64,000 nucleotides of DNA from Patescibacteria group bacterium UBA6201 (GTDB taxonomy: Bacteria; Patescibacteriota; Minisyncoccia; Phycocordibacterales; UBA918): contig DISV01000005.1 of NCBI GenBank assembly GCA_002422025.1, positions 290,948-354,947 on the forward strand, given 5' to 3'. Positions 26,334 to 53,267 of the stretch are shown here, piece after piece. The position numbers were made by a program, and so were the translations under genes. Each line of letters starts with the position of its first letter. The first letter of the stretch is position 1. The notes beneath the pieces are model-generated. The model was not told the DNA's origin. It made no database searches and saw only the letters and a list, made by a program, of their open reading frames with translations.

Positions 26334-26447
26334 AAATCGAATGCAGTTCTGATGGTTGGAGAAAATTTTATGAGGGAGACGTATACGACATACGATGACT
26401 GAATAAAATTTTTGAAACCACAGAAATGCATCGATTTTAGAAGTTTT
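26334..26447. repeat. Copy A of a ~105-115 bp intergenic element with terminal inverted repeats (MITE-like or structured regulatory RNA)
   Basis: About 85% identical to 54873-54985. Its ends form an inverted repeat (aaatcgaatgcagttctg ... cagaaatgcatcgattt). It starts right at the stop of the CAP-domain gene and lies immediately upstream of the UmuD-like gene. Confidence 0.6.
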
Positions 26448-27492
26448 AGGCTATGAGAGCGCCAGAAGAGGCAAGCAAATGAACCTGAAACAACACAATC
26501 ATCATCAAAAGCATAACTGTCGCATAAGCAATCTGTATCGGATGATGCCTTCTCCACTCAATAATGATGGAAGCTAGTAAAGCCCCAATTATAAACAAAC
26601 CGAGAATAGAATAAATGATCTGGAGCAACAGGCGCGGAGAGGTCAAAATACGCCAAAAGGTTGAAGGCCTTGAAGTGATATTGTCAGTCGGTGCAGAAAT
26701 TATCTCTTCAACATTCTCTACTGCCGTGGCAGCAAAACTTTCATAGACCACGGTTCCATCACTGGTTACACTCGCATTTATCTCGCTGTCTTCTGTAACA
26801 CCGGCGACCTGTGCAGGGATAACAGGCTCTGTTTCCTCTACAATTACTTGCTCAGGTTCAGTCAGCACAAGTTCAGTTTCTGTAATTTCAGGAACCACCT
26901 CAGACACTGTTGCTGGTGCTGCTACCGCAACCGCTGGAGTACCAAACATCTGTACAACAAAAACTGTGTCAAAACCTTCGTATTCACCCTTTGCTGTTCC
27001 GATACCAATCTCAGTATACTTGGTGTTCATAATATTCTCGCGGTGTGTGGGAGACTTAAGCCAAGCATCAACCACTACAGTTGAGTCAGTGAAGTGTACA
27101 GCCAAGTTTTCACCAGCGTGAATGTAGGAATAACCAGCTTCGGTAAACCAATGCCACGGAGAGACACCAGCGGGACTCCAGTGGGCAAAGTAGCCATTCT
27201 TCGCCATATCTTCGGCCTTAAGGCGTGCTGCCTCGTCGAGAACTGGGTTTCTAACTAGTGGAGACTTACCCTCTTCAACACGAGCAGAGTTGGTGGCGTC
27301 GGTCACAACAGCTGGCAAAATTGTAGAGACCAACCATTCAGAACTGACCCAAAGAATTGATTGCAGATTAGCAATGGAAAAGGAGATGAGGACCAAGCCC
27401 ATCATACCAACCAAAGCCGCCCGTTGAAGGACGTGCGGCTTAAAGTCGTTCTCAGCATTCGGAACAAAAAACTTTTTCAGCCAGTTTTTCAC
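26446..27492 (-). CDS. CAP/SCP/PR1-like domain protein with N-terminal TM anchor and C-terminal TM helix
   Basis: CAP domain motifs (GYFAHWSPAG, HAGENLA, VVDAWLKSPTHRENIMNTKYTEIGIG). Confidence 0.75.
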   Translation of the reverse strand: MKNWLKKFFVPNAENDFKPHVLQRAALVGMMGLVLISFSIANLQSILWVSSEWLVSTILPAVVTDATNSARVEEGKSPLVRNPVLDEAARLKAEDMAKNGYFAHWSPAGVSPWHWFTEAGYSYIHAGENLAVHFTDSTVVVDAWLKSPTHRENIMNTKYTEIGIGTAKGEYEGFDTVFVVQMFGTPAVAVAAPATVSEVVPEITETELVLTEPEQVIVEETEPVIPAQVAGVTEDSEINASVTSDGTVVYESFAATAVENVEEIISAPTDNITSRPSTFWRILTSPRLLLQIIYSILGLFIIGALLASIIIEWRRHHPIQIAYATVMLLMMIVLFQVHLLASSGALIA

Positions 27493-27688: not shown

Positions 27689-30600
27689 TTATTCAAGACT
27701 CCAGAAGTAGGCAGTAATAGCTCCAATGGTCACTATTAGTGACGGCCAGAAAGCTCCTACCAGTCCGAAGAATACTGCACCAGCTAATAGTAGCAAGGCG
27801 ACAGCCATAAATGTGCTCTGTACTGCCCTCATAGCCATAGTCTCAGGATATTCGTTTCTTCTCCAGAGTGCTACAGCAGAAGCTAGTAACCAGAGAAGCA
27901 CTAGTAGCCAGTAATAATTCTGCCACGAGCTAAGTATGGCTCCTTCAGAATCTTCATCTTCTTCGTTTACAGTCATCTCGGTAATCTCATTCTCTTCTTG
28001 TCCTTCAGCATCTTTTGCTTCTTGTACGAGCTGCAAGTCAGCTTGTGTGATTGAATCACCCAATACAACACCTGATGACTGACCTGCTGGACTTTGAGCC
28101 GAGACATAGGAAGCAAGTAGGAACTCAGCTAGACGATTCTTAATTTGTTCAAGCAAATCGTATATTTCTCCGTCCGTGCTAGCACCAAGTACTCGAGGAG
28201 TAGCACTTCTATTTGTTCCTCCACCTCCTCCACCCCCACCTCCGTCAGTATCAGTGTTAGTTTCAGGGATAACTGTGTTAGTAGTTGGTTCGAAGTCATA
28301 TGCCTCAGTATGAGTATTATTGCCAGTCTTAATACCGATTACAAAGTTATCAATATTACCTGTAAACCCACCTGGATAAGGCTCTCCTACTCGAACACCA
28401 AGGAATGAGTCAGTTGTACGAGTACCTGCGTTAGGGAATGCGGCCTTAATTTGATTCCATGTCTTTGTTACTGAACCAGAGTCACCACCAAGCTCTGCTG
28501 GCCAATTAGCTCCGGAATACTTCCAAAGAGCATTGCCTCCATTTATAGCATCCCACTCTTGCCAAGTATCTGCCAATACAGTGCCATTGTCTCTTGGTAC
28601 ATAAATAAGTCGTCGTTGCCAAGTATCAGTGCCATTAAAGTCAACATTGAAGTGCAAATAAGGTGCTGCATTTACACCAGCGCCGTTTCCAGCCGACTGA
28701 GAGTAGGTTGAGAATTTAAGGTCAGTAATATCAGCCAACTTTACGTTACTGAACTGATAAGTGGCCAAGTTGCGTCGTGCATTGGTACTAGACGCAACCT
28801 CTACAGGCACACTGATTTCAACACTACCTAGACCTAGTAGCACTCCAGCAGGACCAGTCACAAATGAGCCCAAACTGTTGTTGACTCCTTCAGCTCCATC
28901 AATACTTCCTGTCTGATCATTATAGAAGAACCAATTAGTTGATGAGAGATCTTCAGCTTCAACTGTAGTAGTGCCAGAAGTAAATGATGGTGGAGTAGAT
29001 GGAGTGGTTTTGTAGACAATAGTGAATTCATCGCTGCACTCTGATTCATGACCGCCGTTATCGACAGCAATAATACAGAAGTAGTGAGTCCCCTCTCCTT
29101 GGTTAAAGGAACCTGAGCGTGAGTTTGCAGAACCATTGTTCACCGTCCAAGCAGTAGATGTACTGTTGAAAGCAGAGGTAGAAATGTTGTTCCAGTACTT
29201 GTATATGTAGTGACTAAAGTCTGGTTCGGTATTAGCGTCCCAAACTGCGGTACCAGAAACCAACTCGGTTGTGCCACCGTCAGCCACAGGGTTACTGTTT
29301 GAGTCGTTCCATCCTAGACCGGTTGGGACAGCTGGAGTGCCGTTCATTGGGCCTGAACCATCTACATCGTAGTAGTAGTGAACAGGGTCACTCCAACCAC
29401 TAACGTTGCCGGCATTATCAAAGGCACGAACCCAGATGGTCACACCACCTTGTTCAGAAGTTGAAGGAATATGATTGCGAGAAGTGCCGTCTACGTCACG
29501 ACAACCTACCCAATCTCCATCAATAGTTACGTCTGGACAGGTAGAAGCGCTAAACGTATGTCCATCGTCATAACGGTAAGCGATTTGGTAATAGTCGATA
29601 CCGCTAGCATCAGTGACTACAGTCCATTCATTTAGAATCGGAGCAGTTGTAAAGATTTGTTCAGGATTTGGAAAAGTTATTTCTGGTACAGATGGTCCAG
29701 TAGCATCATAAGTAACTACAAAAGGATCAGAGTAGTTAGAACAATCATCAGAGGAATTACAGGCACTGAATGCAAAATAATGAGTCCCCTCACCTTGAGT
29801 GAAATTGTCGTTATACACTCCAAGACTAGATGAGTGAAGTGCTAAGTTGGTTGGATTCCAAGGAGTAGCCTCTTTAAAGACTGACCCGACGATATCATTC
29901 CAATACTTAAGTTGATAACGATTAACATCAAGTGAGGACGAGAGGTCAAAGGTAAAGTATTGCTCTTGAGTATACCCGCCATTAGACACGACTGTATTGC
30001 TCGGAGTTGCAGTGAAGATTGCTGTTGGAATTGTGGGAGTCTCTGTAACTTCACCAAGTTCAAGGTCAGACCAGATAGTTGTGTAACTTTGCCCACCATT
30101 GAAACTATTAAATATAGTCTCATTAAACTGATTGAAATTATGTCCATCAATTATAGAACTGTACGAATGAACAAGACTTCCATCAACAAAAAATTCAAAT
30201 TGATTAGTATATGGGTTTTGTAACACTTCAAGACTTACACTTGTACCATAGGTACTTGATGCCACATCAGTCCAGCCACCATTTGCTGTATCCCATACTC
30301 GAATCCGAGGATTCGCTTCAAGATTTGTAAACTCAATGATTGGCCAAGCCAAAGAACCAGTGGTTGTGGCAGACAAAACGCCCCATAAACCAGCACGCAC
30401 ATCTGTTACAGAACTCCATGAACTGTCGATATACAGATTTGCTTTGACGCTATTATTGCCACTTGGGAGAGTCGCCTTTACTCCTTCCGTTTTATAGTAA
30501 CCTTCAGGACTTGCAGAAGGACCATGTACATTAATAACTAACTGATCGGGTGTAGCAGTCCATCCACCAGTTGGGTTAGTACGGTCAGGCGACCAAGTTA

Positions 30601-31525
30601 ATCCGCCGAATTCTTGTGGTGTATGCACTACCACGAAAATCGTAAAGTGATTAAGTTCAGAAATCGTTACAGTATCTTCTGATGCTTGAACCTGAACACT
30701 ATCATCAGAAATGATATCAGCGTTGGAGAGTTGATCTACACTTTCAGCATACACAATACTTGGGACTTCATTTGCACTAGACGGCAAAGGTAATTCGAGA
30801 TCATAAGCAAACATACCATTCTCCATCGAAGAAGTAATATCGTAAGCAACATTACTTATAGCCCCCAATGAAGCCACCTGTTCGTCAGTCAAAATAACCT
30901 CCTCAATAGATAGACTGCCAGCAACTTCTGGGAGGCTAGTGAAAGTAACTTTTACTTGGGAGTTTTGTGGAGCAACATACGCCACACCTAATTTAACGTT
31001 ATCGACTGTAGCAACACCATTCTCGCCGAGCTGAAGGGTTACTTCTTTATTCCCAGAAAAAAGATCAACTGCTTCTTTTACTATTGCAGAAGCTGCTTCA
31101 ATCACTGTCGAAACAATACCTTTATTTTCCTCATCAACTACATCATCTGAACTAGATGCAACTTCTTCCGAACTAGATGCCACATCTTCTGTAGTAGTTG
31201 CACTTTCGTTTTCATCAGAAATAGTTGGAATATTCTCCACTTCATCAACCCCACTTTCTTCGTTATCAATAATTTCTGTGGCCTCTTGTTGTTCTGCGAC
31301 TTCTTCAGAAGCTTCAACCTCCTCAACAAGTTCCTCAGAATCTTCAACTTGCTCAGAACTTTCCGATACAACTTCTGGAGTTGAAATTTCTGTCGGCTCT
31401 GCATTAACTTCCTCAGCGTAAGTAGTTAACACACCAATCGGCAAAGATGTTACCAAGAGTGAGGCTATAGCTAATAAAGCGGCGGTCTTTCGTAGTGAAT
31501 TTGGGATTCTGTGTGTGTAGTTCAT
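27689..31525 (-). CDS. Giant cell-surface protein (1278 aa): signal peptide, acidic N-terminal region, repeated Ig-like modules, poly-Gly linker, C-terminal TM domain
   Basis: Signal peptide. Internal paralogous repeats (YWNDIVGSVF...GEGTHYFAFSACNSSDDCS / YKYWNNISTSAF...GEGTHYFCIIAVDNGGHESECS). A ~200-aa module shared with the 32969..34984 protein. A GGGGGGGG tract followed by TPRVLGASTD. Three C-terminal TM helices. Confidence 0.7.
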   Translation of the reverse strand: MNYTHRIPNSLRKTAALLAIASLLVTSLPIGVLTTYAEEVNAEPTEISTPEVVSESSEQVEDSEELVEEVEASEEVAEQQEATEIIDNEESGVDEVENIPTISDENESATTTEDVASSSEEVASSSDDVVDEENKGIVSTVIEAASAIVKEAVDLFSGNKEVTLQLGENGVATVDNVKLGVAYVAPQNSQVKVTFTSLPEVAGSLSIEEVILTDEQVASLGAISNVAYDITSSMENGMFAYDLELPLPSSANEVPSIVYAESVDQLSNADIISDDSVQVQASEDTVTISELNHFTIFVVVHTPQEFGGLTWSPDRTNPTGGWTATPDQLVINVHGPSASPEGYYKTEGVKATLPSGNNSVKANLYIDSSWSSVTDVRAGLWGVLSATTTGSLAWPIIEFTNLEANPRIRVWDTANGGWTDVASSTYGTSVSLEVLQNPYTNQFEFFVDGSLVHSYSSIIDGHNFNQFNETIFNSFNGGQSYTTIWSDLELGEVTETPTIPTAIFTATPSNTVVSNGGYTQEQYFTFDLSSSLDVNRYQLKYWNDIVGSVFKEATPWNPTNLALHSSSLGVYNDNFTQGEGTHYFAFSACNSSDDCSNYSDPFVVTYDATGPSVPEITFPNPEQIFTTAPILNEWTVVTDASGIDYYQIAYRYDDGHTFSASTCPDVTIDGDWVGCRDVDGTSRNHIPSTSEQGGVTIWVRAFDNAGNVSGWSDPVHYYYDVDGSGPMNGTPAVPTGLGWNDSNSNPVADGGTTELVSGTAVWDANTEPDFSHYIYKYWNNISTSAFNSTSTAWTVNNGSANSRSGSFNQGEGTHYFCIIAVDNGGHESECSDEFTIVYKTTPSTPPSFTSGTTTVEAEDLSSTNWFFYNDQTGSIDGAEGVNNSLGSFVTGPAGVLLGLGSVEISVPVEVASSTNARRNLATYQFSNVKLADITDLKFSTYSQSAGNGAGVNAAPYLHFNVDFNGTDTWQRRLIYVPRDNGTVLADTWQEWDAINGGNALWKYSGANWPAELGGDSGSVTKTWNQIKAAFPNAGTRTTDSFLGVRVGEPYPGGFTGNIDNFVIGIKTGNNTHTEAYDFEPTTNTVIPETNTDTDGGGGGGGGGTNRSATPRVLGASTDGEIYDLLEQIKNRLAEFLLASYVSAQSPAGQSSGVVLGDSITQADLQLVQEAKDAEGQEENEITEMTVNEEDEDSEGAILSSWQNYYWLLVLLWLLASAVALWRRNEYPETMAMRAVQSTFMAVALLLLAGAVFFGLVGAFWPSLIVTIGAITAYFWSLE

Positions 31526-31839
31526 AAAATTTCTAATATTCTGAATAAAACCAAATTATTTATGCTGAAATAAGATCAAGATATAAAAAACGGGCCACAC
31601 ACGAAATCGTATGCGGCTTTAAACCGTCCCCCTCCAATATCCTACCCCTTTACAGTCAGCATTCATTAGTATTTTTAACACTACACTCTTTTTTCCTCTT
31701 ATGCCAATTGACACCAAGAATTAATTATGTGATATGTTGCTCCTATAAAGATTCAGTGCCTAAAGTAAACTTACTGTTTTGTTGTCTAACCCTCCGTTTT
31801 TGTAGTAATTAAGGTGCTCTTACTCTCTTGGACCCTACT

Positions 31840-32964
31840 TTATCTAGAAAATATACCCTTGAACCAATTCCATACACTACCGAAGAAGCTAGTTCCTGCC
31901 GAGACAGCAGAAGCGGTCTGCTCTTTAACGGTAGTGGCAGCCTTTTGACCCATACCTACAACCTCTTCGACTGTACTAGTCACCCCTTCCACTATTTCTT
32001 TACCGCTGGAAAATGGATCAGAAGTAGATTGACCACTAGAGCTACTTTGACGATAGGTTATACCCTGATTACGATACCAGGCTATCTCGGACTGCTGATC
32101 AGTGGTTAAAGGAAATTCTTGAGCAAATTCGCAGTATATCTCATTCACCATCTTGCGGGTTGTATAGTAGACGAACCGAGTTGGCAGAGGCAATCCCCAG
32201 GGTGTCAGTACTCTATCCGAGTACTTTTGCTGGAACTCATACACTGCCTGCTGAGTCGCTGCGTCGTACACTCCATTGACCTCCAAATCAAAGTGGCCCT
32301 CGAGATCACGAAGGAAAGTCTGCAGCTTGATTACCTCAGACACATCGTTCTGACGATTAGGATGGATATAGCTATAAAGCAGCTGTTCACAAGTATCAGT
32401 TGTTTCTCCAAGCACCTGCGGAGTGGCTTCTACGACAGCTCGAGATCGAGTCGAACGACTACCACCCCCACCACCGCCACCAGTATCATTTGTCACCACT
32501 GGAACAATTACGGTTGAACCTTCTTCAAACCCAACAATTAAGTCAAAGCCAAAGTTTTTCCCCATCAAGGGGTCCTGTGGAGCATCTGTTTTGAGCGTAA
32601 GAGTGATGGTGTAGTTGTGTGTTCCGCCATCAGGAATAGTGGATAGCTCAAAAGGATTAATTAACTCACCTAGCTCTCCACTGGCTGAGAAGTCTCCAGT
32701 AATCGTAAAGGTCATCTGATCAGCAAACAGAAGGAAGTCGCCAGTCGTGGACGCTACTTGTATTCCCGCCTTTTGCGTAAAGCCAGTAGTGTTTTCGACT
32801 GCAAAGCTACCACTCGCTGATGAGTTAGGCACCATATTAGTAGCTGTGATCGGCATATCAGAAGTGGTAACAAATGCCTCAACAATAGCCGGCATAACCA
32901 AAGCAGCCATAACTAACAGAGTCAAAGCATAACGTGTAGTAAAGTTTTTAAGAGATACGTTCAT
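31840..32964 (-). CDS. Secreted protein with poly-Gly linker and C-terminal peptidoglycan-binding (PG_binding_1-like) domain
   Basis: Signal peptide. A GGGGGGG tract followed by TPQVLGETTD, the same motif as in the giant protein. The PG-binding consensus is VIKLQTFLRDLEGHFDLEVNGVYDAATQQAVYEFQQKY. Confidence 0.65.
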   Translation of the reverse strand: MNVSLKNFTTRYALTLLVMAALVMPAIVEAFVTTSDMPITATNMVPNSSASGSFAVENTTGFTQKAGIQVASTTGDFLLFADQMTFTITGDFSASGELGELINPFELSTIPDGGTHNYTITLTLKTDAPQDPLMGKNFGFDLIVGFEEGSTVIVPVVTNDTGGGGGGGSRSTRSRAVVEATPQVLGETTDTCEQLLYSYIHPNRQNDVSEVIKLQTFLRDLEGHFDLEVNGVYDAATQQAVYEFQQKYSDRVLTPWGLPLPTRFVYYTTRKMVNEIYCEFAQEFPLTTDQQSEIAWYRNQGITYRQSSSSGQSTSDPFSSGKEIVEGVTSTVEEVVGMGQKAATTVKEQTASAVSAGTSFFGSVWNWFKGIFSR

Positions 32965-32968
32965 AAAC

Positions 32969-34984
32969 TTATTCGGTTTCAGTTACTGATTCTGGTTCCG
33001 GAGCTGGCTCTGGCTCTGGTTCTGGTTCAGGTTCTGGTTCAGTATCAGTTTCTGGAGTTGTTTCTGGTTCTGACTCAGTAGTTTCCTCGGTCTCTGGTTT
33101 TTCTACCAACGCATCCCCGCTTCCATCCTCTGGATCAATTACTTCTACCTCCTCTTCCTTCTTACCATCACCTTCAGGATCAATCACTCCCTCATCCACA
33201 CCCTCCCCATCTTCCTTCACAGGTTCATCACCCTCTATACCCTCTTCCGTAACGGATTCAATTGGAATTTCACCAGGATCAGTAACAGCAGCTTCGTCAG
33301 TCGGTTCAATTACTGTATCACCTCCGCCTCCATCTGCTCCTGCTCCTTCTTCATCAATCTTCTCCTCGTCTGCTTCCTCTATGGCCTCAACAGTCTCCAC
33401 AATCTCAACTGGAGGAGTTTCAACCACTAGCTCTACCTCCTCTTGAGACTCTTCACCTATTAGATACTCTCCGCGTGAGGTTAGTAATGCCACCATTCCT
33501 TCTATCATTTCATCGGAAAATCCAGAATCAATCAAATCTTGACGAGAAAAGCGGTTTTCCTCACCTGGAGTTGGTTCTGGATCTACCCAAGGACCAATAC
33601 CGTCAATAAACCGCGCAAATGATTTACCCTCAGGAACGTTACTGGCATTACATACACCCACTGTATCATTAGTGTTTGGATTGTCTGGTGTAGGGTCATT
33701 TTCACAAGCAGTTGAGTCTTCGCCATACTCGTACTCATCTTTAATTTGATCTAATGAGTTGTATAACTTCACGGTATCGCCTGTGTTGTTGAGTATAGGT
33801 TTATTCATATAAACCACCATAAATCCGTTGGCTGGAATAGTTGTAGTACCTGATGATATATGAGTAACAGCTGTCACAGAATTTATTTCTATGGTGTTAC
33901 CAGTACCACCGCTATAATCAGTAACATACCAGTCAGTCAAGTCTACTTCAAAATCCTCATTGTTATATATCTCAACCCACTCTCCATCTGGCATGTTGGC
34001 ACTATCATCGTCACTGTTCGGTAAGAACTCGTTTAAGACCACATCACCATCGGTAGGTACAGACACTTCACTTTCTGCGGTTGGCTCAAAGTCGAAGGTA
34101 CGGGTATGAGTAGAAGCACCAGAATCAATACCAATAGTGAACGAGTCAATATTCTCAATATAACCATCTACATAAGGCTCGCCCACCCGAAGACCCAACC
34201 ATGAGTCGGTAGCTCTTGTTTGTATGCTTGGGTAGGCTGCAAGAATATCACTCCATTTTTGAAATTGAGCAGTTGGGTCAACAAATGGTGTACCTGTCTC
34301 CGCAGGCCATGAGGTAGCAGCCCCTCCGCAACCAGACATACCAGACCAGCACCAGAGAGCCTCTCCTCCCGCTATTGCATCCCATTCTTGCCAGCTATCT
34401 TGGATAACAGTTCCATTTTGATTCGGCACAAAAGCCAATCGTTTCTGCCAAGTGTCAGTACCATCAAAGCTGACGTTGAAATTTATATAGGCAGAACGGT
34501 CAAGACTACCGCCATTTCCGGCTGACGGATTATAAGTAACGTAAGACATCTCAGTAATGTCTGCGAGCGCAACATCTCTAAACATATATGTTGCTATATT
34601 GCGTCGCTCAGTACCACTCACACCAATTTGAGCGCTACCTGAACCATAGAAAGGTGTGCCGGGACCATCGACGAAAGAACCTAGAGAATTATTAATTGTA
34701 TCTGTCTCATCATTGTAGAAAAACCAAGAAGTAGGATTGAGTAATTCTGTTAACTTATCGGTTCCTAAGTCTTCAGCCATAACTACGATTGTTTCTTCTG
34801 TGTCAGAAGACCAAACACCTGTAGACACACTATTACCTTCAATGGAGGTGCTGGCTTGCCAAGCGGCAAAGGTGGTTTGAATTGCTAGACCACTCGAGTT
34901 CATAAACATAGAGCAAACTAAAAGTACCTTTGCCCAAAACGGCAAATGTTTGCTACTAATTCTGAATAATGAGTGTTTTTGCAT
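32969..34984 (-). CDS. Large secreted protein (671 aa) with SipW-cognate-type signal peptide, shared surface module, lamin-tail domain and acidic EPEP C-terminal tail
   Basis: The N-terminal TFAAWQASTSIEGNSVSTGVWS resembles the TasA-type signal region. The LTD motif is NEFLPNS...EWVEIYNNEDFEVDLTDWYVTDY...GDTVKLYN. A ~200-aa module is paralogous to one in 27689..31525. The tail is PEPEPEPEPEP. Confidence 0.7.
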   Translation of the reverse strand: MQKHSLFRISSKHLPFWAKVLLVCSMFMNSSGLAIQTTFAAWQASTSIEGNSVSTGVWSSDTEETIVVMAEDLGTDKLTELLNPTSWFFYNDETDTINNSLGSFVDGPGTPFYGSGSAQIGVSGTERRNIATYMFRDVALADITEMSYVTYNPSAGNGGSLDRSAYINFNVSFDGTDTWQKRLAFVPNQNGTVIQDSWQEWDAIAGGEALWCWSGMSGCGGAATSWPAETGTPFVDPTAQFQKWSDILAAYPSIQTRATDSWLGLRVGEPYVDGYIENIDSFTIGIDSGASTHTRTFDFEPTAESEVSVPTDGDVVLNEFLPNSDDDSANMPDGEWVEIYNNEDFEVDLTDWYVTDYSGGTGNTIEINSVTAVTHISSGTTTIPANGFMVVYMNKPILNNTGDTVKLYNSLDQIKDEYEYGEDSTACENDPTPDNPNTNDTVGVCNASNVPEGKSFARFIDGIGPWVDPEPTPGEENRFSRQDLIDSGFSDEMIEGMVALLTSRGEYLIGEESQEEVELVVETPPVEIVETVEAIEEADEEKIDEEGAGADGGGGDTVIEPTDEAAVTDPGEIPIESVTEEGIEGDEPVKEDGEGVDEGVIDPEGDGKKEEEVEVIDPEDGSGDALVEKPETEETTESEPETTPETDTEPEPEPEPEPEPAPEPESVTETE

Positions 34985-34991
34985 AAAAATT

Positions 34992-35540
34992 TTAATCTTG
35001 TCTTTCGGTTTCGTTTTCTTTAACTCCTTCTCTACTCGTTCTTATCGATACCATTATCTTCTTAACCTCATCCACTATGACCAGAAACGCAGGAATGATA
35101 ATAATGGCAAGAAACCCCCAGGGTGTCTTGGCTACATCGAGTAGGTAGCCAATAAATGGTAAGTGAAAAATCACTTTGCCATAAATCTCGCTTTCGAGGA
35201 CAGGATTGCGATCCGCATAGTCATTGGCGTCGCCTTTAGTGGTGAACTCGCGTTCGTCTCCGTCACCTTCGGCAGCTGCAACAATTCGGTGCGTAATTGG
35301 CACCTCCAAGCTACTCTCTATTCTTTTGAAGGTGACTATATCACCCTCAGCATAATCGGCTTTTGGATAAATGAAGACTACGCTCCCAGTAGGGATAGCT
35401 GGCTCCATTGAACCAGTCAAAACCGTACGGGAATCAAGAGGAAAACTGGGAATGGAAAGGATAGATATGAGAAGCAGGGTCGCGACAGCCAAAAAGACCG
35501 TCACAACGATATAAAGAAGGATGTTAAAGAACAATTTCAT
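34992..35540 (-). CDS. Signal peptidase I, archaeal/eukaryotic-like S26B type (SipW-like)
   Basis: N-terminal TM helix, then LTGSMEPAIPTGSVVFI (Ser box), a His in PITHRIV, and a TKGDANDYAD box. It is 182 aa with a C-terminal TM helix, as in SipW. Confidence 0.75.
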   Translation of the reverse strand: MKLFFNILLYIVVTVFLAVATLLLISILSIPSFPLDSRTVLTGSMEPAIPTGSVVFIYPKADYAEGDIVTFKRIESSLEVPITHRIVAAAEGDGDEREFTTKGDANDYADRNPVLESEIYGKVIFHLPFIGYLLDVAKTPWGFLAIIIIPAFLVIVDEVKKIMVSIRTSREGVKENETERQD

Positions 35541-35617: not shown

Positions 35618-36286
35618 TTAGGAAGGAAGTTCGTCAGGCAGAGTTCCTACAAATACTTCAGTCCATGCACATTCACCATTATGAAGACCGTAATCAGCAT
35701 CTTCTGCAAATCCGCCCATTTGACGCATCGCAATCACCTCACCAGGACCAAAACCATTAGATCCATCGGCAATCTTAACTGCATTTGCTGCACCATAGAA
35801 TGCACTTACAAGTGTGAAGGTACCATTGTCAGGATCACCAGCATCACCGACATTTCCTACGCTAGAACCTGTTTCATATGTTGTGTTATCTATTGCTGTG
35901 CCATAACCCATCCAGTTTGATCCATCACCTGGGGTACTAGCACGCCAGGCAATCTTTGTTGCATCACAGGCCCCTGGATTACCTGATACAGGATCAATAT
36001 AGAACCATAGATCAAGTTCCATTGAGCTGTCGTTTGTAACCTCTGCTCGTTCCGCCGGAGAACTCTTGAAGCCAGGAAGGACCTCAGTTTCTATAATCGG
36101 CTTTGACTCAGAACCATACGCTGCCACTCCTTCAGCTGTAATCCCAAGTACAGCGGTACTGATTGTATTACCTTCAATACCATCAGTTGCTTGCCACGCA
36201 GCGTATGTAGCACCTAGGACAAGGGCTGTCATTGCTACTATCACGCTTGCTGCGAGCAGTACCTTTTTGTTTAAAATTGCTGTCAT
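35618..36286 (-). CDS. Secreted protein with SipW-cognate (TasA/camelysin-class) signal peptide
   Basis: N-terminus ...ALVLGATYAAWQATDGIEGNTISTAVLGI matches the A-[FYW]-x-D/A...N-x-[FI]-S-[ST]-[GA]-x-L pattern of SipW substrates. It is nearly identical in pattern to the N-terminus of 32969..34984 and lies directly upstream of the SipW-like gene. Confidence 0.6.
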   Translation of the reverse strand: MTAILNKKVLLAASVIVAMTALVLGATYAAWQATDGIEGNTISTAVLGITAEGVAAYGSESKPIIETEVLPGFKSSPAERAEVTNDSSMELDLWFYIDPVSGNPGACDATKIAWRASTPGDGSNWMGYGTAIDNTTYETGSSVGNVGDAGDPDNGTFTLVSAFYGAANAVKIADGSNGFGPGEVIAMRQMGGFAEDADYGLHNGECAWTEVFVGTLPDELPS

Positions 36287-51569: not shown

Positions 51570-53267
51570 CTACCAACTTCCCCCACCACCACCCCCTGCG
51601 CCACCGCCCGAAGAACCTCCACCAGAAGAAGCTGAGACAGATGCTCCGGTAGAAGCTACTGACGAAGAAAATGTTCCCAAGCTGTTGGTCAAATAAAGCG
51701 CGGAGAAAGTAGAGCCATTCTTATCTTCGTACCAGGAAGGATTTGGGATAGTAATTCCTTCAAAAACTTTAGCCCATTCCTTCTCAACCTTAAAAGCAAT
51801 AGCATAGGGAAGATATTCCATGAATTGTTCCGGGCTTTTCTTCGGCGCATTATGGAAAGCAAAACGCTCCTTATCAGTGACCGAAAGAAATGTTTTGAAG
51901 CCTTTAAGGTAATCAAGAGCCTCATATCCCTTGCGTGTCCGGCGGCGGTAGAAGAAGGTCGCAATCACGGAACTCACCACAAAAGTAATTACGGCAATTG
52001 CAGTTGGCGTAACCATTTCTGCACCAACAATAAAGGTAGCGCCGAGCAACAACAGTAATGTAATAAGGAGAGAGGACGACAACTTAAGTGGCATTTTCCA
52101 CTTATGCTCAAAGAAACCTTGCAGAATTAAATCTGACTCGGCCGCAGACTTTAACTCTGTTAGTAATTTGTGGTTTTTTGTCACCTTACTTGTATCCTTA
52201 GCAATCTCACTTAACACGATAGTACTACCCACTGTCGCATCTTCAGCAAACAGTAAGGTAAATATTTTCTTTTGTAACTCAGTCGGAAGCTCCTCGTAGG
52301 GACGCAAAAGGGTTATCTCGTAATCATCAGTCTCTATAAAAAAGAACACCTTTCGGCCAATGTGTTTGATTTTCAGGAAACCTTGTTCAGCCAAGTAGAC
52401 AATACCAGCAGTGATATCGTGTGGGTCAATACGACCATCAAACAAGAGTCCGGTGTACATCGGCTTGAAATCTTCATATGGCTCATACTGCGCAATTATA
52501 GAAGCATCCGTTCTGTGTGCTACGTAGTACCTATATAAGAACCAAGTAAGCCAAATGAACCACAAGAATGCACCTATGAGCCACAATGGCCAAAGTGACA
52601 ACCGCTCCATAATTAATCTATCCACTAAGGTTGGATCAAGTGACAGAGCGACCGTTAGTCCCTCACCAGAATCAAGAGCCACTGGACCAAAATCAAACGC
52701 ACCCTTACCAAGTATCGAAGGACACTCGTCTGTCGAACCAGTAGGGCCGAAGTAACAGTGGTATTCGGACAAGACAAGACCTTCCTGGTCGTATACCCTC
52801 ACTAAAGCATTTTCGATTGGAACTTCCCAACCGTTACCAGTCGCATTCCAGTACAAATCCACCCCTCCCTGGTCGTAGTAAGTGAGACCACCTTCAACTG
52901 TGTAGTTAATGATATAAGTATGCTCACCACTAATGGTCTGGCTCGGGTCACCAATCTTTATTTCCAACTCTCCAATATTCTCGCTCCGCTCAAATATAGC
53001 AGTCTCACCATCTACTGACACCGAGAAGTTCACTATCTCCAGATACCGCTCTTTGAACCATTCCTCGCTTTCTTGAAAATGTTTTGTCGGTATAAAGCGA
53101 AATATTCCGTGTTTATCTTCAGACTCAAAATCGTAAACAATAGTTTCACTTACAGAGAAAGAACCATCACTTTCTAGAGTAATCTCTGAAATAAACGAAT
53201 GTATAGTCTCTGCCCTGACCGATATCGGTACTAGAATGAGGACCAATAACAGGATAAGTTTTTTCAT
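51570..53267 (-). CDS. DUF2207-family membrane protein with Gly-rich C-terminal tail
   Basis: Signal peptide, a large extracytoplasmic domain, TM helices, and a tail SSGGGSSGGGAGGGGGGSW. It is adjacent to LemA, the typical pairing. Confidence 0.65.
   Translation of the reverse strand: MKKLILLLVLILVPISVRAETIHSFISEITLESDGSFSVSETIVYDFESEDKHGIFRFIPTKHFQESEEWFKERYLEIVNFSVSVDGETAIFERSENIGELEIKIGDPSQTISGEHTYIINYTVEGGLTYYDQGGVDLYWNATGNGWEVPIENALVRVYDQEGLVLSEYHCYFGPTGSTDECPSILGKGAFDFGPVALDSGEGLTVALSLDPTLVDRLIMERLSLWPLWLIGAFLWFIWLTWFLYRYYVAHRTDASIIAQYEPYEDFKPMYTGLLFDGRIDPHDITAGIVYLAEQGFLKIKHIGRKVFFFIETDDYEITLLRPYEELPTELQKKIFTLLFAEDATVGSTIVLSEIAKDTSKVTKNHKLLTELKSAAESDLILQGFFEHKWKMPLKLSSSLLITLLLLLGATFIVGAEMVTPTAIAVITFVVSSVIATFFYRRRTRKGYEALDYLKGFKTFLSVTDKERFAFHNAPKKSPEQFMEYLPYAIAFKVEKEWAKVFEGITIPNPSWYEDKNGSTFSALYLTNSLGTFSSSVASTGASVSASSGGGSSGGGAGGGGGGSW

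What the first reader, a model, noticed from the sequence alone, without database searches (positions are those of the whole stretch)
28215..34730. Paralogous ~200-aa module and a shared poly-Gly + VLG..TD motif link three adjacent surface proteins
Module shared by the giant protein (about nt 28285-29035) and the LTD protein (about nt 34085-34730):
- Both carry NWFFYNDQTGSIDG.../SWFFYNDETDTINNSLGSFV, ...RRNLATYQF/RRNIATYMF, FNVDFNGTDTWQRRL/FNVSFDGTDTWQKRL, LGVRVGEPY and NIDNF.IGI..G..THT..FDFEPT. This indicates duplication of a ~200-aa extracellular domain.

Poly-Gly motif shared by the giant protein and the PG-binding protein:
- Both contain an uninterrupted run of 7-10 Gly followed by ..RS...P.VLG..TD...LL (GGGGGGGGGTNRSATPRVLGASTDGEIYDLL vs GGGGGGGSRSTRSRAVVEATPQVLGETTDTCEQLL).
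- A conserved motif immediately after a flexible linker could be a processing, sorting or cell-wall-attachment signal specific to this lineage.
- The DUF2207 protein (51570..53267) also ends in a Gly-rich tail.
Basis: seen in the sequence. Interest (0 to 1): 0.55.

Follow-up and report, generated by a model that had tools for sequence, protein, structure and literature searches.

The report
Swappable binding domain, conserved stalk-anchor linker
Three neighbouring surface proteins of a tiny "candidate phyla radiation" bacterium share two real features. One is an old, swappable sugar-binding-like domain. The other is a poly-glycine stalk ending in a short VLG motif, which precedes a cell-wall or membrane anchor in the majority of the related single-anchor surface proteins sampled from this bacterial group, and whose job is unknown.

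Summary
Both observations are real.

**Module.** The ~245-aa module is shared by the giant protein and the LTD protein (49% identity, E 1e-70). It belongs to a widespread family with no Pfam model and has a beta-jelly-roll, CBM-like fold. The two copies are old paralogues, not a recent local duplication. A close orthologue of the giant carries a different domain at the same position, so this is a cassette swap.

**Motif.** Poly-Gly, a basic Ser/Arg patch and [GP]xV[LA]G[AE][ST]T are conserved in orthologues. The motif is not specific to this lineage. It is the usual junction before a Cys-bracketed PG_binding_1-like anchor domain in Patescibacteria (8,380 cluster representatives). It occurs upstream of 64% of single-copy domains, against 1.4% of background windows. 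It is absent between tandem copies. It also precedes transmembrane anchors, as in the giant. Many members also end in an aromatic amphipathic tail.

**Context.** The genes lie in a conserved cluster with a SipW-type signal peptidase and TasA-like signal sequences.

**Open point.** Cleavage or sorting at the motif is not shown. AlphaFold places it in a disordered linker. The Gly tail of the DUF2207 protein carries no VLG motif.

The parts
28244..28987 (-). Jelly-roll (CBM-like) module, copy in the giant protein (aa 847-1094).
34046..34807 (-). Jelly-roll (CBM-like) module, copy in the LTD protein (aa 60-313).
   Evidence: It is 68% identical to the corresponding module of the LTD orthologue in L003.
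28217..28243 (-). Poly-Gly run (9 Gly) of the giant protein.
   Evidence: The GGN codons are mixed, so this is not a homopolymer tract. The run is kept (9 Gly) in orthologue L085.
28172..28201 (-). First junction motif of the giant, TPRVLGASTD.
   Evidence: The orthologue L085 has TPTVAGASTD. It matches the family logo G/P-x-V-L-G-A-S-T.
28046..28072 (-). Second VLG motif of the giant, GVVLGDSIT.
   Evidence: L085 has GSVLGASVA at the same place. Doubled motifs are also seen in P0181, P0204 and P0207.
27692..27931 (-). C-terminal hydrophobic anchor of the giant; three transmembrane helices read from the sequence.
   Evidence: It is 40% identical, E 5e-11, to the C-terminus of P0129. It aligns with the stand-alone 121-aa protein of L003. 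It is 86% identical in L085.
32524..32874 (-). N-terminal beta-sandwich of the PG-binding protein (aa 31-147), possibly TasA-like.
   Evidence: AF2 pLDDT is 77-90. The top Foldseek PDB hit is the TasA fibre 8aur_A, E 2.7e-4, but with low TM-score. There is no sequence match to Pfam or PDB.
32440..32481 (-). Poly-Gly run (7 Gly) plus basic Ser/Arg patch (SRSTRSR) of the PG-binding protein.
   Evidence: A Gly-rich stretch followed by an S/R patch recurs in orthologues and in the wider family.
32395..32424 (-). Junction motif of the PG-binding protein, TPQVLGETTD.
   Evidence: The motif Gly (G186) is invariant in all 15 aligned homologues and VLG itself is kept in the PG-domain orthologues, while the surrounding linker varies. 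AF2 pLDDT is below 50 for aa 149-191.
32065..32391 (-). Cys-bracketed PG_binding_1-like anchor domain (aa 192-300; C192 and C278 conserved).
   Evidence: Pfam PG_binding_1 scores 28.1 bits against a cut-off of 23. A profile of this domain finds 8,380 cluster representatives.
31843..31890 (-). C-terminal aromatic/basic amphipathic tail, SFFGSVWNWFKGIFSR.
   Evidence: AF2 predicts a helix at aa 361-372. It is conserved in orthologues. A similar tail is found in 65 of 103 single-copy family members.
33722..34057 (-). Lamin tail domain of the LTD protein.
   Evidence: Pfam LTD, E 1.3e-15, 58.2 bits against a cut-off of 34.3.
34865..34984 (-). Signal sequence of the LTD protein with a TasA-like cleavage region, IQTTFA|AWQA.
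   Evidence: Sequence is. The TasA site GGGTWA|AF, processed by SipW, is described in PMC10269814. The same pattern occurs in the orthologues.
34992..35540 (-). SipW-like (archaeal/ER-type) signal peptidase I.
   Evidence: NCBIfam TIGR02228 scores 108.2 bits against a cut-off of 51.85. The SipW equivalog scores 111 bits, below its cut-off of 190.
35618..36286 (-). 222-aa secreted protein with the same TasA-like signal region, LGATYA|AWQA.
   Evidence: It is conserved upstream of SipW in L001, L003 and L004.

Best explanation
The finding joins two separate features of a conserved surface-protein gene cluster in a Patescibacteria (Parcubacteria-type) genome.

**(1) The shared module.**
- It is a ~245-aa beta-jelly-roll domain of a widespread, unnamed family.
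- It most likely works as a ligand-binding (carbohydrate-binding-module-like) head.
- It behaves as an exchangeable cassette. The giant adhesin-like protein and the LTD protein each carry an old paralogous copy. Relatives carry other cassettes at the same positions.

**(2) The linker.** Poly-Gly, then a Ser/Arg patch, then [G/P]-x-V-[L/A]-G-[A/E]-[S/T]-T forms the stalk and junction of a 'stalk-and-anchor' cassette seen widely in Patescibacteria-labelled genomes.
- The cassette tethers very diverse passenger domains to the envelope.
- In the usual form the motif lies 2-14 residues (occasionally up to 22; mode 5-7) before a Cys-bracketed PG_binding_1-like domain. After that domain come a Ser/Thr-rich spacer and an aromatic amphipathic C-terminal tail. 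The inferred role is non-covalent binding to peptidoglycan plus association with the membrane surface.
- In the giant protein the same stalk and motif lead into transmembrane helices instead.

**Shown versus inferred.**
- Shown: the motif is a short element kept by selection inside an otherwise fast-changing, predicted-disordered linker.
- Inferred: it marks the base of the stalk and is recognised by a conserved envelope partner or by the wall itself during anchoring. I favour this over it being a cleavage site.
For: **Module**
- BLASTP E 1e-70 between the two window copies.
- 234 homologues, none with a Pfam domain covering the module. Most are ~280-aa secreted proteins of Chloroflexota, Microgenomates and Roizmanbacteria.
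- Cassette behaviour: LTD orthologues carry A, A+B, B+other or DUF4114 N-terminal domains. The giant's orthologue L085 is about 85-90% identical by eye in the flanking segments, but the module core is unalignable (55% identity over the whole 720-column alignment).

**Linker**
- Conserved in PG-protein orthologues at 34-64% identity, and in P0132 and P0133, which have unrelated N-termini.
- A profile of the anchor domain alone finds 8,380 cluster representatives.
- VLG lies within 35 aa upstream of 57 of 89 single-copy domains, 5 of 40 first tandem copies and 3 of 54 later copies. Background is 22 of 1,594 windows.
- Logo: G(-2) in 55 of 62, T(+5) in 46 of 62.
- Passengers are Big_9/cadherin-like, HYR, Ig-like, SpaA-like and DUF11 domains.
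- All 79 genome loci carry Patescibacteria-type labels; five are titled only 'bacterium'.
- The motif also precedes C-terminal transmembrane anchors without the PG domain: the giant, P0129-P0131, L007, L040/L045 and L073.
- The motif is kept in L085 as VAG plus VLG.
- AF2 pLDDT is below 50 across the linker.
- An aromatic C-terminal tail is present in 65 of 103 members.
- The two window linkers share no DNA similarity beyond GGN codons, so conservation is at the protein level.
Against: - No experiment or structure shows peptidoglycan binding by this domain subfamily, or any partner for the motif.
- The tight spacing to the first Cys (mode 5-7 residues) would also fit a purely structural N-terminal extension of the domain.
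- The PG-protein AF2 model is shallow (15 sequences, mean pLDDT 65). 'Disordered' may therefore only mean 'not predictable'.
- In the genome sample only 22 of 76 upstream regions have an exact VLG. Many have other Gly-rich motifs such as GNGPIVGSYG. The motif is common but not universal.
- The CBM-like role of the module rests on fold resemblance at modest scores (Foldseek best E 2.6e-3, TM 0.47).
Confidence: 0.6

Rival explanations
1. The motif is a proteolytic processing site. A conserved envelope protease cuts at or near VLG (or within the Gly or Arg stretch). This either sheds the passenger from its anchor or matures the protein.
For: - It is a short linear motif in a predicted-disordered linker.
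- It is strongly conserved, with an adjacent basic Ser/Arg patch.
- It is sometimes doubled.
- It occurs before two unrelated anchor types.
Against: - There is no direct evidence of cleavage.
- No protease gene is consistently adjacent in the five syntenic loci.
- Constitutive cleavage would make the anchor pointless.
- The residue after the Gly is variable (A, V, T, E), so an autoproteolytic N-O shift is unlikely.
Confidence: 0.15
2. The motif is only a structural N-terminal extension (capping strand) of the single-copy subfamily of the PG-binding domain. In the giant protein and in P0129 it survives as a remnant of a recombination that replaced the domain with a transmembrane anchor.
For: - The distance from VLG to the first Cys is narrow, mostly 3-8 residues.
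- The giant and P0129 keep a similar helix-like segment after the motif. Compare DGEIYDLLEQI, DLWEDLLKEI and TCEQLLYSYI.
- P0129 sits at the same locus position as the PG-binding protein.
Against: - Tandem second and third domain copies fold without it (3 of 54).
- AF2 does not dock it onto the domain.
- No remnant of the PG domain is detectable in the giant's C-terminus.
- The motif, or its VAG variant, is retained in the giant, in L085 and in P0129-P0131 after loss of the domain. It also occurs before transmembrane anchors in unrelated proteins.
Confidence: 0.2
3. The two similarities are chance or compositional, or they result from recent gene conversion between neighbouring genes.
For: - BLASTP of the two linkers is not significant on its own (E 3.6).
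- Poly-Gly is low-complexity sequence.
Against: - The module match has E 1e-70 across a globular domain.
- The motif is expected 0.001 times and is seen twice, each time after one of the only two G7+ runs.
- The motif is enriched about 35- to 45-fold upstream of anchor domains in independent proteins.
- There is no DNA similarity beyond the GGN codons.
- The two module copies are 60% identical at the nucleotide level, with 44% third-position identity.
Confidence: 0.02
4. The VLG segment is a donor beta-strand that plugs into a TasA-like fibre subunit made by the same cluster. On this reading the PG-binding protein and the giant would be wall and membrane anchors for a SipW-dependent fibre, analogous to TapA.
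For: - A SipW-type peptidase lies next to the genes.
- The signal regions are TasA-like, T-[YF]-A|A-W.
- The N-domain of the PG-binding protein has the TasA fibre as its top Foldseek hit.
- The cluster is conserved in five loci.
- Donor-strand exchange is how TasA fibres assemble, going by the title of PMC9674648 listed; the paper itself was not read.
Against: - The motif occurs in many Patescibacteria proteins whose passengers are not TasA-like; whether SipW lies near those genes was not checked.
- The TasA similarity is weak (TM-score 0.23-0.35).
- Profile comparison of the two candidate subunits found nothing.
- No complex prediction could be run.
Confidence: 0.05

Closest known systems
Non-covalent cell-wall anchoring modules of monoderm surface proteins (PG_binding_1 / PF01471, and by analogy LysM, SLH, GW and CWB domains)
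   Same: - A C-terminal peptidoglycan-binding-type domain follows a flexible spacer.
- It carries diverse adhesin-like passengers (Ig-like, cadherin-like, SpaA-like, DUF11).
- The Pfam PG_binding_1 match is above its threshold.
   Different: - This subfamily has an N-terminal extension and a conserved Cys pair (C192 and C278).
- It has a poly-Gly plus Ser/Arg plus GxVLGAST junction.
- It has a C-terminal aromatic amphipathic tail.
- None of these three features is covered by a Pfam or NCBIfam model.
- Among the 79 genome loci returned, all informative labels are Patescibacteria.
Sortase LPXTG sorting signal with a Gly/Pro-rich wall-spanning region
   Same: - A short conserved motif lies near the C-terminal anchor of surface adhesins.
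- It is preceded by a Gly-rich spacer.
- The passenger domain repertoire is comparable.
   Different: - There is no LPXTG.
- The motif lies upstream of a folded domain, or 20-100 residues before the transmembrane helices. It is not directly before a single helix with a basic tail.
- There is no evidence of cleavage or transpeptidation.
tapA-sipW-tasA type clusters (Bacillus) and archaeal bundling pili
   Same: - A dedicated ER/archaeal-type signal peptidase is encoded in the cluster (TIGR02228 above its cut-off).
- The substrates have T-aromatic-A|A-aromatic cleavage regions like TasA GGGTWA|AF.
- There is a beta-sandwich protein with the TasA fibre as its best fold hit.
- There is a wall-associated accessory protein.
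   Different: - There is no sequence-level TasA/camelysin match.
- The cluster also holds an LTD protein with swappable heads, a CAP protein and an ECF sigma factor.
- The SipW equivalog score is below its cut-off.
Beta-jelly-roll carbohydrate-binding modules (CBM4, 11, 15, 22, 30), PL7 lyases and the laminin IV/L4 domain
   Different: - Sequence identity is 7-14%.
- There is no match to any Pfam or PDB sequence profile.
- The ligand is unknown.
- Sequence conservation across phyla is unusually high, 50-59%.

Membership tests
PG_binding_1 (PF01471) | Match to the Pfam HMM at or above the gathering score. | tested here: met
   The PG-binding protein scores 28.1 bits against a cut-off of 23, over aa 209-248. 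Only the first part of the profile (positions 3-41 of 57) is matched.
PG_binding_1 (PF01471) | Binds peptidoglycan. | not testable with these tools
   No binding data exist. The function is inferred from the family name only.
Lamin tail domain (PF00932) | Match to the Pfam HMM at or above the gathering score. | tested here: met
   58.2 bits against a cut-off of 34.3, over aa 310-421 of the LTD protein.
ER/archaeal-type signal peptidase I (TIGR02228) | HMM score above the curated cut-off. | tested here: met
   108.2 bits against a cut-off of 51.85 for 34992..35540.
SipW (NF046067 equivalog) | HMM score above the equivalog cut-off. | tested here: not met
   111.2 bits against a cut-off of 190. 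It is SipW-like, not an equivalog.
SipW-dependent (TasA-type) signal peptide | Aromatic residues at P2 and P2' around an A|A cleavage site, next to a SipW gene. | tested here: inconclusive
   - LTD reads TTFA|AWQA and the 222-aa protein reads ATYA|AWQA. TasA reads GTWA|AF.
- No NCBIfam model hit was found.
- Cleavage was not tested.
TasA / camelysin (Peptidase_M73) fibre subunits | Sequence-profile match to the family. | tested here: not met
   No Pfam, NCBIfam or PDB profile hit for the beta-sandwich or for the 222-aa protein.
TasA / camelysin (Peptidase_M73) fibre subunits | TasA-like beta-sandwich fold. | tested here: inconclusive
   The top Foldseek hit is 8aur_A at E 2.7e-4, but TM-score is only 0.23-0.35 and many generic beta-sandwiches follow.
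Carbohydrate-binding modules (beta-jelly-roll CBMs) | Jelly-roll fold similar to solved CBMs. | tested here: met
Carbohydrate-binding modules (beta-jelly-roll CBMs) | Sequence membership of a defined CBM family, or demonstrated glycan binding. | tested here: not met
   No Pfam hit and no PDB profile hit. Binding is untestable here.
Sortase substrates (LPXTG sorting signal) | LPXTG-like motif directly followed by a hydrophobic helix and a basic tail at the C-terminus. | tested here: not met
   No such motif-plus-helix arrangement in the three proteins.
Exosortase/archaeosortase/rhombosortase C-terminal signals (PEP-CTERM, PGF-CTERM, GlyGly-CTERM and others) | Match to an NCBIfam sorting-signal model. 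| tested here: not met
   No NCBIfam hit of this kind at E <= 0.01 for any of the three proteins.

The most novel reading that the evidence does not exclude
GxV[L/A]G[A][S]T, together with its poly-Gly and Ser/Arg-rich lead-in, could be the recognition signal of an as yet unknown Patescibacteria surface-protein attachment or processing system. Such a system would be functionally analogous to sortase/LPXTG or exosortase/PEP-CTERM. It would act on many of the single-anchor adhesin-like proteins sampled here, with either peptidoglycan-binding or transmembrane anchors.
Probability: 0.2. Interest if true: 0.8.

Novelty: new variant of a known kind. Interest (0 to 1): 0.5.

Why it matters
Patescibacteria (CPR) are mostly uncultured, often live attached to host cells, and depend on their surface proteins. 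How those proteins are held on the envelope is largely unknown.

**The anchor cassette**
- A single recognisable stalk-and-anchor cassette gives a simple sequence handle for listing the surface-exposed proteome of these organisms. The cassette is poly-Gly, a Ser/Arg patch, GxVLGAST, a Cys-bracketed PG-binding-like domain and an aromatic tail.
- The anchor-domain family has thousands of cluster representatives, and the full cassette was seen in most of the single-copy members sampled.
- The cassette can also guide the design of display or pull-down experiments.
- If the motif is read by a dedicated enzyme or partner, that would be a new sorting pathway.

**The jelly-roll module**
- It is unusually conserved (50-59% identity) across CPR and Chloroflexota.
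- It is swapped between proteins.
- It is therefore a candidate determinant of what these cells bind.

Tried and rejected
- **Search with the giant's C-terminal 197 aa.** No hits. The region was later linked to other sequences by pairwise BLASTP to P0129 and by a metagenome scan.
- **Recent gene conversion or duplication between the neighbouring genes.** Rejected at the DNA level and by the identity hierarchy.
- **Remnant of a PG-binding domain in the giant's C-terminus.** None found with the domain profile, filters off.
- **Sequence-level TasA/camelysin membership of the beta-sandwich or the 222-aa protein.** No Pfam, NCBIfam or PDB hits. Profile-profile comparison of the two families was negative.
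- **LPXTG or other known C-terminal sorting signals.** None found. The IPETN just before the poly-Gly of the giant is not conserved in L085.
- **Poly-Gly as a slippage-prone contingency tract.** Rejected, because the GGN codons are mixed.
- **Literature searches for a described CPR linker or anchor motif.** Nothing relevant was found. This is not proof that none exists.
- **DUF2207 Gly tail as part of the feature.** No VLG motif follows it, and no PG_binding_1 match was returned for this protein in the Pfam search.

Full report
**What is there**

All three genes are on the minus strand:
- a 1278-aa 'giant' protein, 27689..31525;
- a 374-aa protein with a Pfam PG_binding_1 match, 31840..32964;
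- a 671-aa protein with a lamin tail domain (LTD), 32969..34984.

The contig is from a Patescibacteria (CPR) genome. The window's BipA clusters at 90% identity or more with proteins named Candidatus Nomurabacteria.

**The shared module: checking the observation**

- BLASTP aligns giant aa 847-1095 with LTD aa 60-313 at 49% identity, E 1e-70.
- The match covers a complete globular domain, not low-complexity sequence.
- A profile of the family finds exactly these two copies in the window.

**The shared module: what it is**

- It has no Pfam or NCBIfam model and no relative with a solved structure by sequence.
- It has 234 database homologues. Most are ~280-aa secreted single-domain proteins from Chloroflexota, Microgenomates and Roizmanbacteria, at a notable 50-59% identity.
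- An AlphaFold2 model from a 49-sequence alignment is confident (pLDDT 88). It is a beta-jelly-roll.
- I read it as a CBM-like ligand-binding head. The ligand is unknown.

**The shared module: not a recent local duplication**

- The giant's copy is closer to stand-alone database proteins (59%) than to the LTD copy (49%). The LTD copy is 68% identical to the module of the LTD orthologue in locus L003.
- At the DNA level the two copies are 60% identical in aligned codons. Third positions match at only 44% of identical residues.
- The module behaves as a cassette. LTD orthologues in related loci carry:
  - an A-type module plus a divergent B-type module (L003, L004);
  - a B-type module plus another domain (L001);
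  - a DUF4114 domain instead (L006).
- A metagenomic orthologue of the giant, L085, is about 85-90% identical by eye on both sides of the module. Inside the module the alignment collapses, and identity over the whole 720-column BLASTP alignment is 55%. Only the last ~30 residues (GY.dN....T..YDFEPT) still fit the module profile. This indicates a domain swap within an otherwise conserved protein.

**The poly-Gly / VLG motif: checking the observation**

- Giant: nine Gly, then TNRSA, then TPRVLGASTD.
- PG-binding protein: seven Gly, then SRSTRSRAVVEA, then TPQVLGETTD.
- P.VLG..TD is expected 0.001 times in the window's 12,389 aa of proteins. It occurs twice, each time after one of the only two runs of 7 or more Gly.
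- The two linkers share no DNA similarity beyond GGN codons, and the codons are mixed. So this is neither gene conversion nor a slippage tract.

**The motif: conservation in orthologues**

- Nine orthologues of the PG-binding protein (34-64% identity) keep a Gly-rich stretch, a basic Ser/Arg patch, (P)xVLG[AE][ST]T and, 2-12 residues later, a conserved Cys. The linker around the motif varies freely in length and sequence.
- P0132 and P0133 have unrelated N-termini and show the same junction.
- The giant's orthologue L085 keeps the nine Gly. It has TPTVAGASTD at the first site and GSVLGASVA at the second.

**The motif: how general it is**

I built a profile of the C-terminal domain only, starting at the Cys and excluding the linker (A3). 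I searched it against 1.84 billion cluster representatives.
- There were 8,380 hits at E <= 1e-3 and 620 at E <= 1e-30, in proteins of 180 to 6,588 aa.
- In the best 141 I located every domain copy and examined the upstream sequence:

| Domain copies examined | Number | Exact VLG within 35 aa upstream | V[LA]G within 35 aa | Run of >= 4 Gly within 80 aa |
|---|---|---|---|---|
| Single-copy | 89 | 57 (64%) | 63 | 56 |
| First copy of a tandem array | 40 | 5 | 5 | 8 |
| Later tandem copies | 54 | 3 | 3 | 0 |
| Background 35-aa windows | 1,594 | 22 (1.4%) | not counted | not counted |

- The logo is G(-2) in 55 of 62, x, V-L-G, A/V/T, S/A, T(+5) in 46 of 62. The Cys usually lies 5-7 residues further on.
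- The passengers are typical adhesin domains: Big_9/cadherin-like, HYR, Ig-like, SpaA-like and DUF11. No Pfam model covers the linker.
- A scan of one genome per species found 223 relatives. All 79 loci returned carry Patescibacteria-type labels, apart from five titled only 'bacterium'. The labels are Parcubacteria/Paceibacterota, Kaiser-, Lloyd- and Komeilibacteria, Minisyncoccia, and 'uncultured Saccharibacteria'.
- In that sample an exact VLG is rarer (22 of 76). Related Gly-rich motifs such as GGGGNGPIVGSYG and PQVAGAST are common.

**The motif is not tied to the PG-binding domain**

- In the giant it is followed by a helix-like segment, a second VLG, an acidic spacer and a C-terminal hydrophobic anchor that I read as three transmembrane helices. 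No remnant of the PG domain is detectable there.
- That anchor is 40% identical (E 5e-11) to the C-terminus of P0129. P0129 sits at the same locus position as the PG-binding protein. It has the same N-terminal beta-sandwich and poly-Gly, then VAGTST ... VLGED, then the hydrophobic anchor.
- In L003 the hydrophobic anchor unit is a separate 121-aa gene just downstream of the PG-binding gene.
- VLG.[SAT][TS] also precedes C-terminal transmembrane anchors in unrelated proteins of L007, L040/L045 and L073.

**Other features of the cassette**

- The AlphaFold2 model of the PG-binding protein gives pLDDT below 50 for aa 149-191. That stretch holds the poly-Gly and VLG (aa 184-186). The confident domain starts at C192. 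The alignment was shallow (15 sequences), so this is weak evidence of disorder.
- The family often ends in an aromatic/basic amphipathic tail. The window protein has SFFGSVWNWFKGIFSR, and a typical member has GSWWSNFWNWLFGR. The tail is present in 65 of 103 single-copy members with a tail of at least 25 aa.
- Together these features describe a composite anchor cassette: a flexible Gly stalk, a basic patch, the VLG junction, a Cys-bracketed PG_binding_1-like domain, a Ser/Thr spacer and an interfacial helix.

**Genomic context**

The order of the cluster is conserved in L001, L003, L004 and L006:
1. ECF sigma factor;
2. a ~315-aa protein;
3. a ~215-aa secreted protein;
4. a SipW-like signal peptidase (TIGR02228, 108 bits against a cut-off of 51.85; the SipW equivalog model is below its cut-off);
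5. the LTD protein;
6. a beta-sandwich protein with stalk and anchor;
7. a CAP protein.

Further points on context:
- The giant gene lies between items 6 and 7 only in the window.
- The LTD protein and the ~215-aa protein have T-[YF]-A|A-W-Q-A after the hydrophobic core. This closely resembles the TasA site GGGTWA|AF that needs SipW (PMC10269814).
- The beta-sandwich of the PG-binding protein has the TasA fibre (8aur_A) as its top Foldseek hit, E 2.7e-4, but with low TM-scores. There is no support at the sequence level.
- A TapA/TasA-like fibre-and-anchor system is therefore a reasonable lead but is not established.

**Mechanism**

Shown:
- the paralogy and cassette behaviour of the module;
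- the conservation, position and distribution of the linker motif;
- its association with two kinds of envelope anchor.

Inferred:
- the anchor domain binds peptidoglycan (from the family name only);
- the tail lies on the membrane surface;
- the Gly run is a spacer through the wall;
- the VLG element is read by a conserved partner, or by the wall, at the base of the stalk.

Rivals:
- A cleavage site is possible but nothing here shows it.
- A purely structural N-terminal cap of the domain fits the tight spacing to the Cys. It does not fit the motif's absence before tandem copies or its persistence before transmembrane anchors.
- Chance and recent gene conversion are excluded.

**Verdict**

The feature is a variant of non-covalent wall anchoring for which I found no published description. 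It carries a conserved junction motif of unknown function and is found in Patescibacteria-labelled genomes from several named groups rather than only in this lineage.

Noticed in passing
window 32972-33457 (- strand); L001 1353-4370; L003 7366-9993; L004 4225-6831; L006 465-2405: All LTD-protein orthologues end in a long acidic tail that finishes with -(S/V/D)(E/T)TE at the very C-terminus (ESVTETE, VVSETE, EPVTE, LSDTE, ESVTE). The window, L001 and L003 tails also contain a GGGGD(T/S) element; L004 and L006 lack it. This may be a C-terminal recognition tag.
   Followed up: no
window 31843-31890 (- strand) and P0176-P0299: Single-copy members of the PG-anchor family often end in an aromatic/basic amphipathic tail, for example GSWWSNFWNWLFGR. 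It is present in 65 of 103 members. It is probably an interfacial membrane helix, and no Pfam or NCBIfam model matched it.
   Followed up: partly
L015, L017, L023, L025, L027, L030, L031, L035, L038, L042, L043, L058, L062, L063 (upstream of the match at about 3001): A second recurrent linker motif follows the poly-Gly run in many family members: (C)GGGGGGNGPI(V/S)GS(F/Y)G. It is often preceded by CT(S/T)NC.
   Followed up: no
window 34865-34984 and 36164-36286 (- strand): The LTD protein and the 222-aa protein share a TasA-like signal-peptide cleavage region, T-[YF]-A|A-W-Q-A-[ST]..I.GN.[VI]ST, next to a SipW-like peptidase gene (34992..35540). This suggests a SipW-dependent export pair in a CPR genome.
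   Followed up: partly
window 28988-30040 (- strand), giant aa ~496-846: The giant contains two internal repeats of a ~110-aa domain, KYWN.I..S.F...W....G.F.QGEGTHYF...A.....S.CSD.F...Y. They flank an OmpL47-type beta-barrel-like segment (weak NCBIfam hit). The repeats are conserved in L085.
   Followed up: no
L003 11253-11618; L001 4379-5377; window 27692-27931: The same hydrophobic anchor unit (read here as three transmembrane helices) occurs in three arrangements: as a separate 121-aa gene (L003), fused to the TasA-like beta-sandwich protein (L001, P0129), and fused to the giant protein (window). These are gene fusion or fission events at one locus position.
   Followed up: partly
window 51570-53267 (- strand): The DUF2207 protein ends in GGGSSGGGAGGGGGGSW. 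No VLG motif follows the Gly tail and no PG_binding_1 match was returned for this protein in the Pfam search; the tail does not belong to the stalk-anchor feature.
   Followed up: yes
window 26446-27492 (- strand); L001 5392-6396; L003 11640-12629; L004 8083-9261; L006 3610-4674: A CAP/YkwD-family protein always follows the anchor gene in the cluster. In the L006 translation the protein has a hydrophobic C-terminal stretch; the other four were not inspected. A LexA-like Peptidase_S24 gene follows it in L001, L003 and L004, and a Y-family polymerase gene further on in L001 and L004.
   Followed up: no
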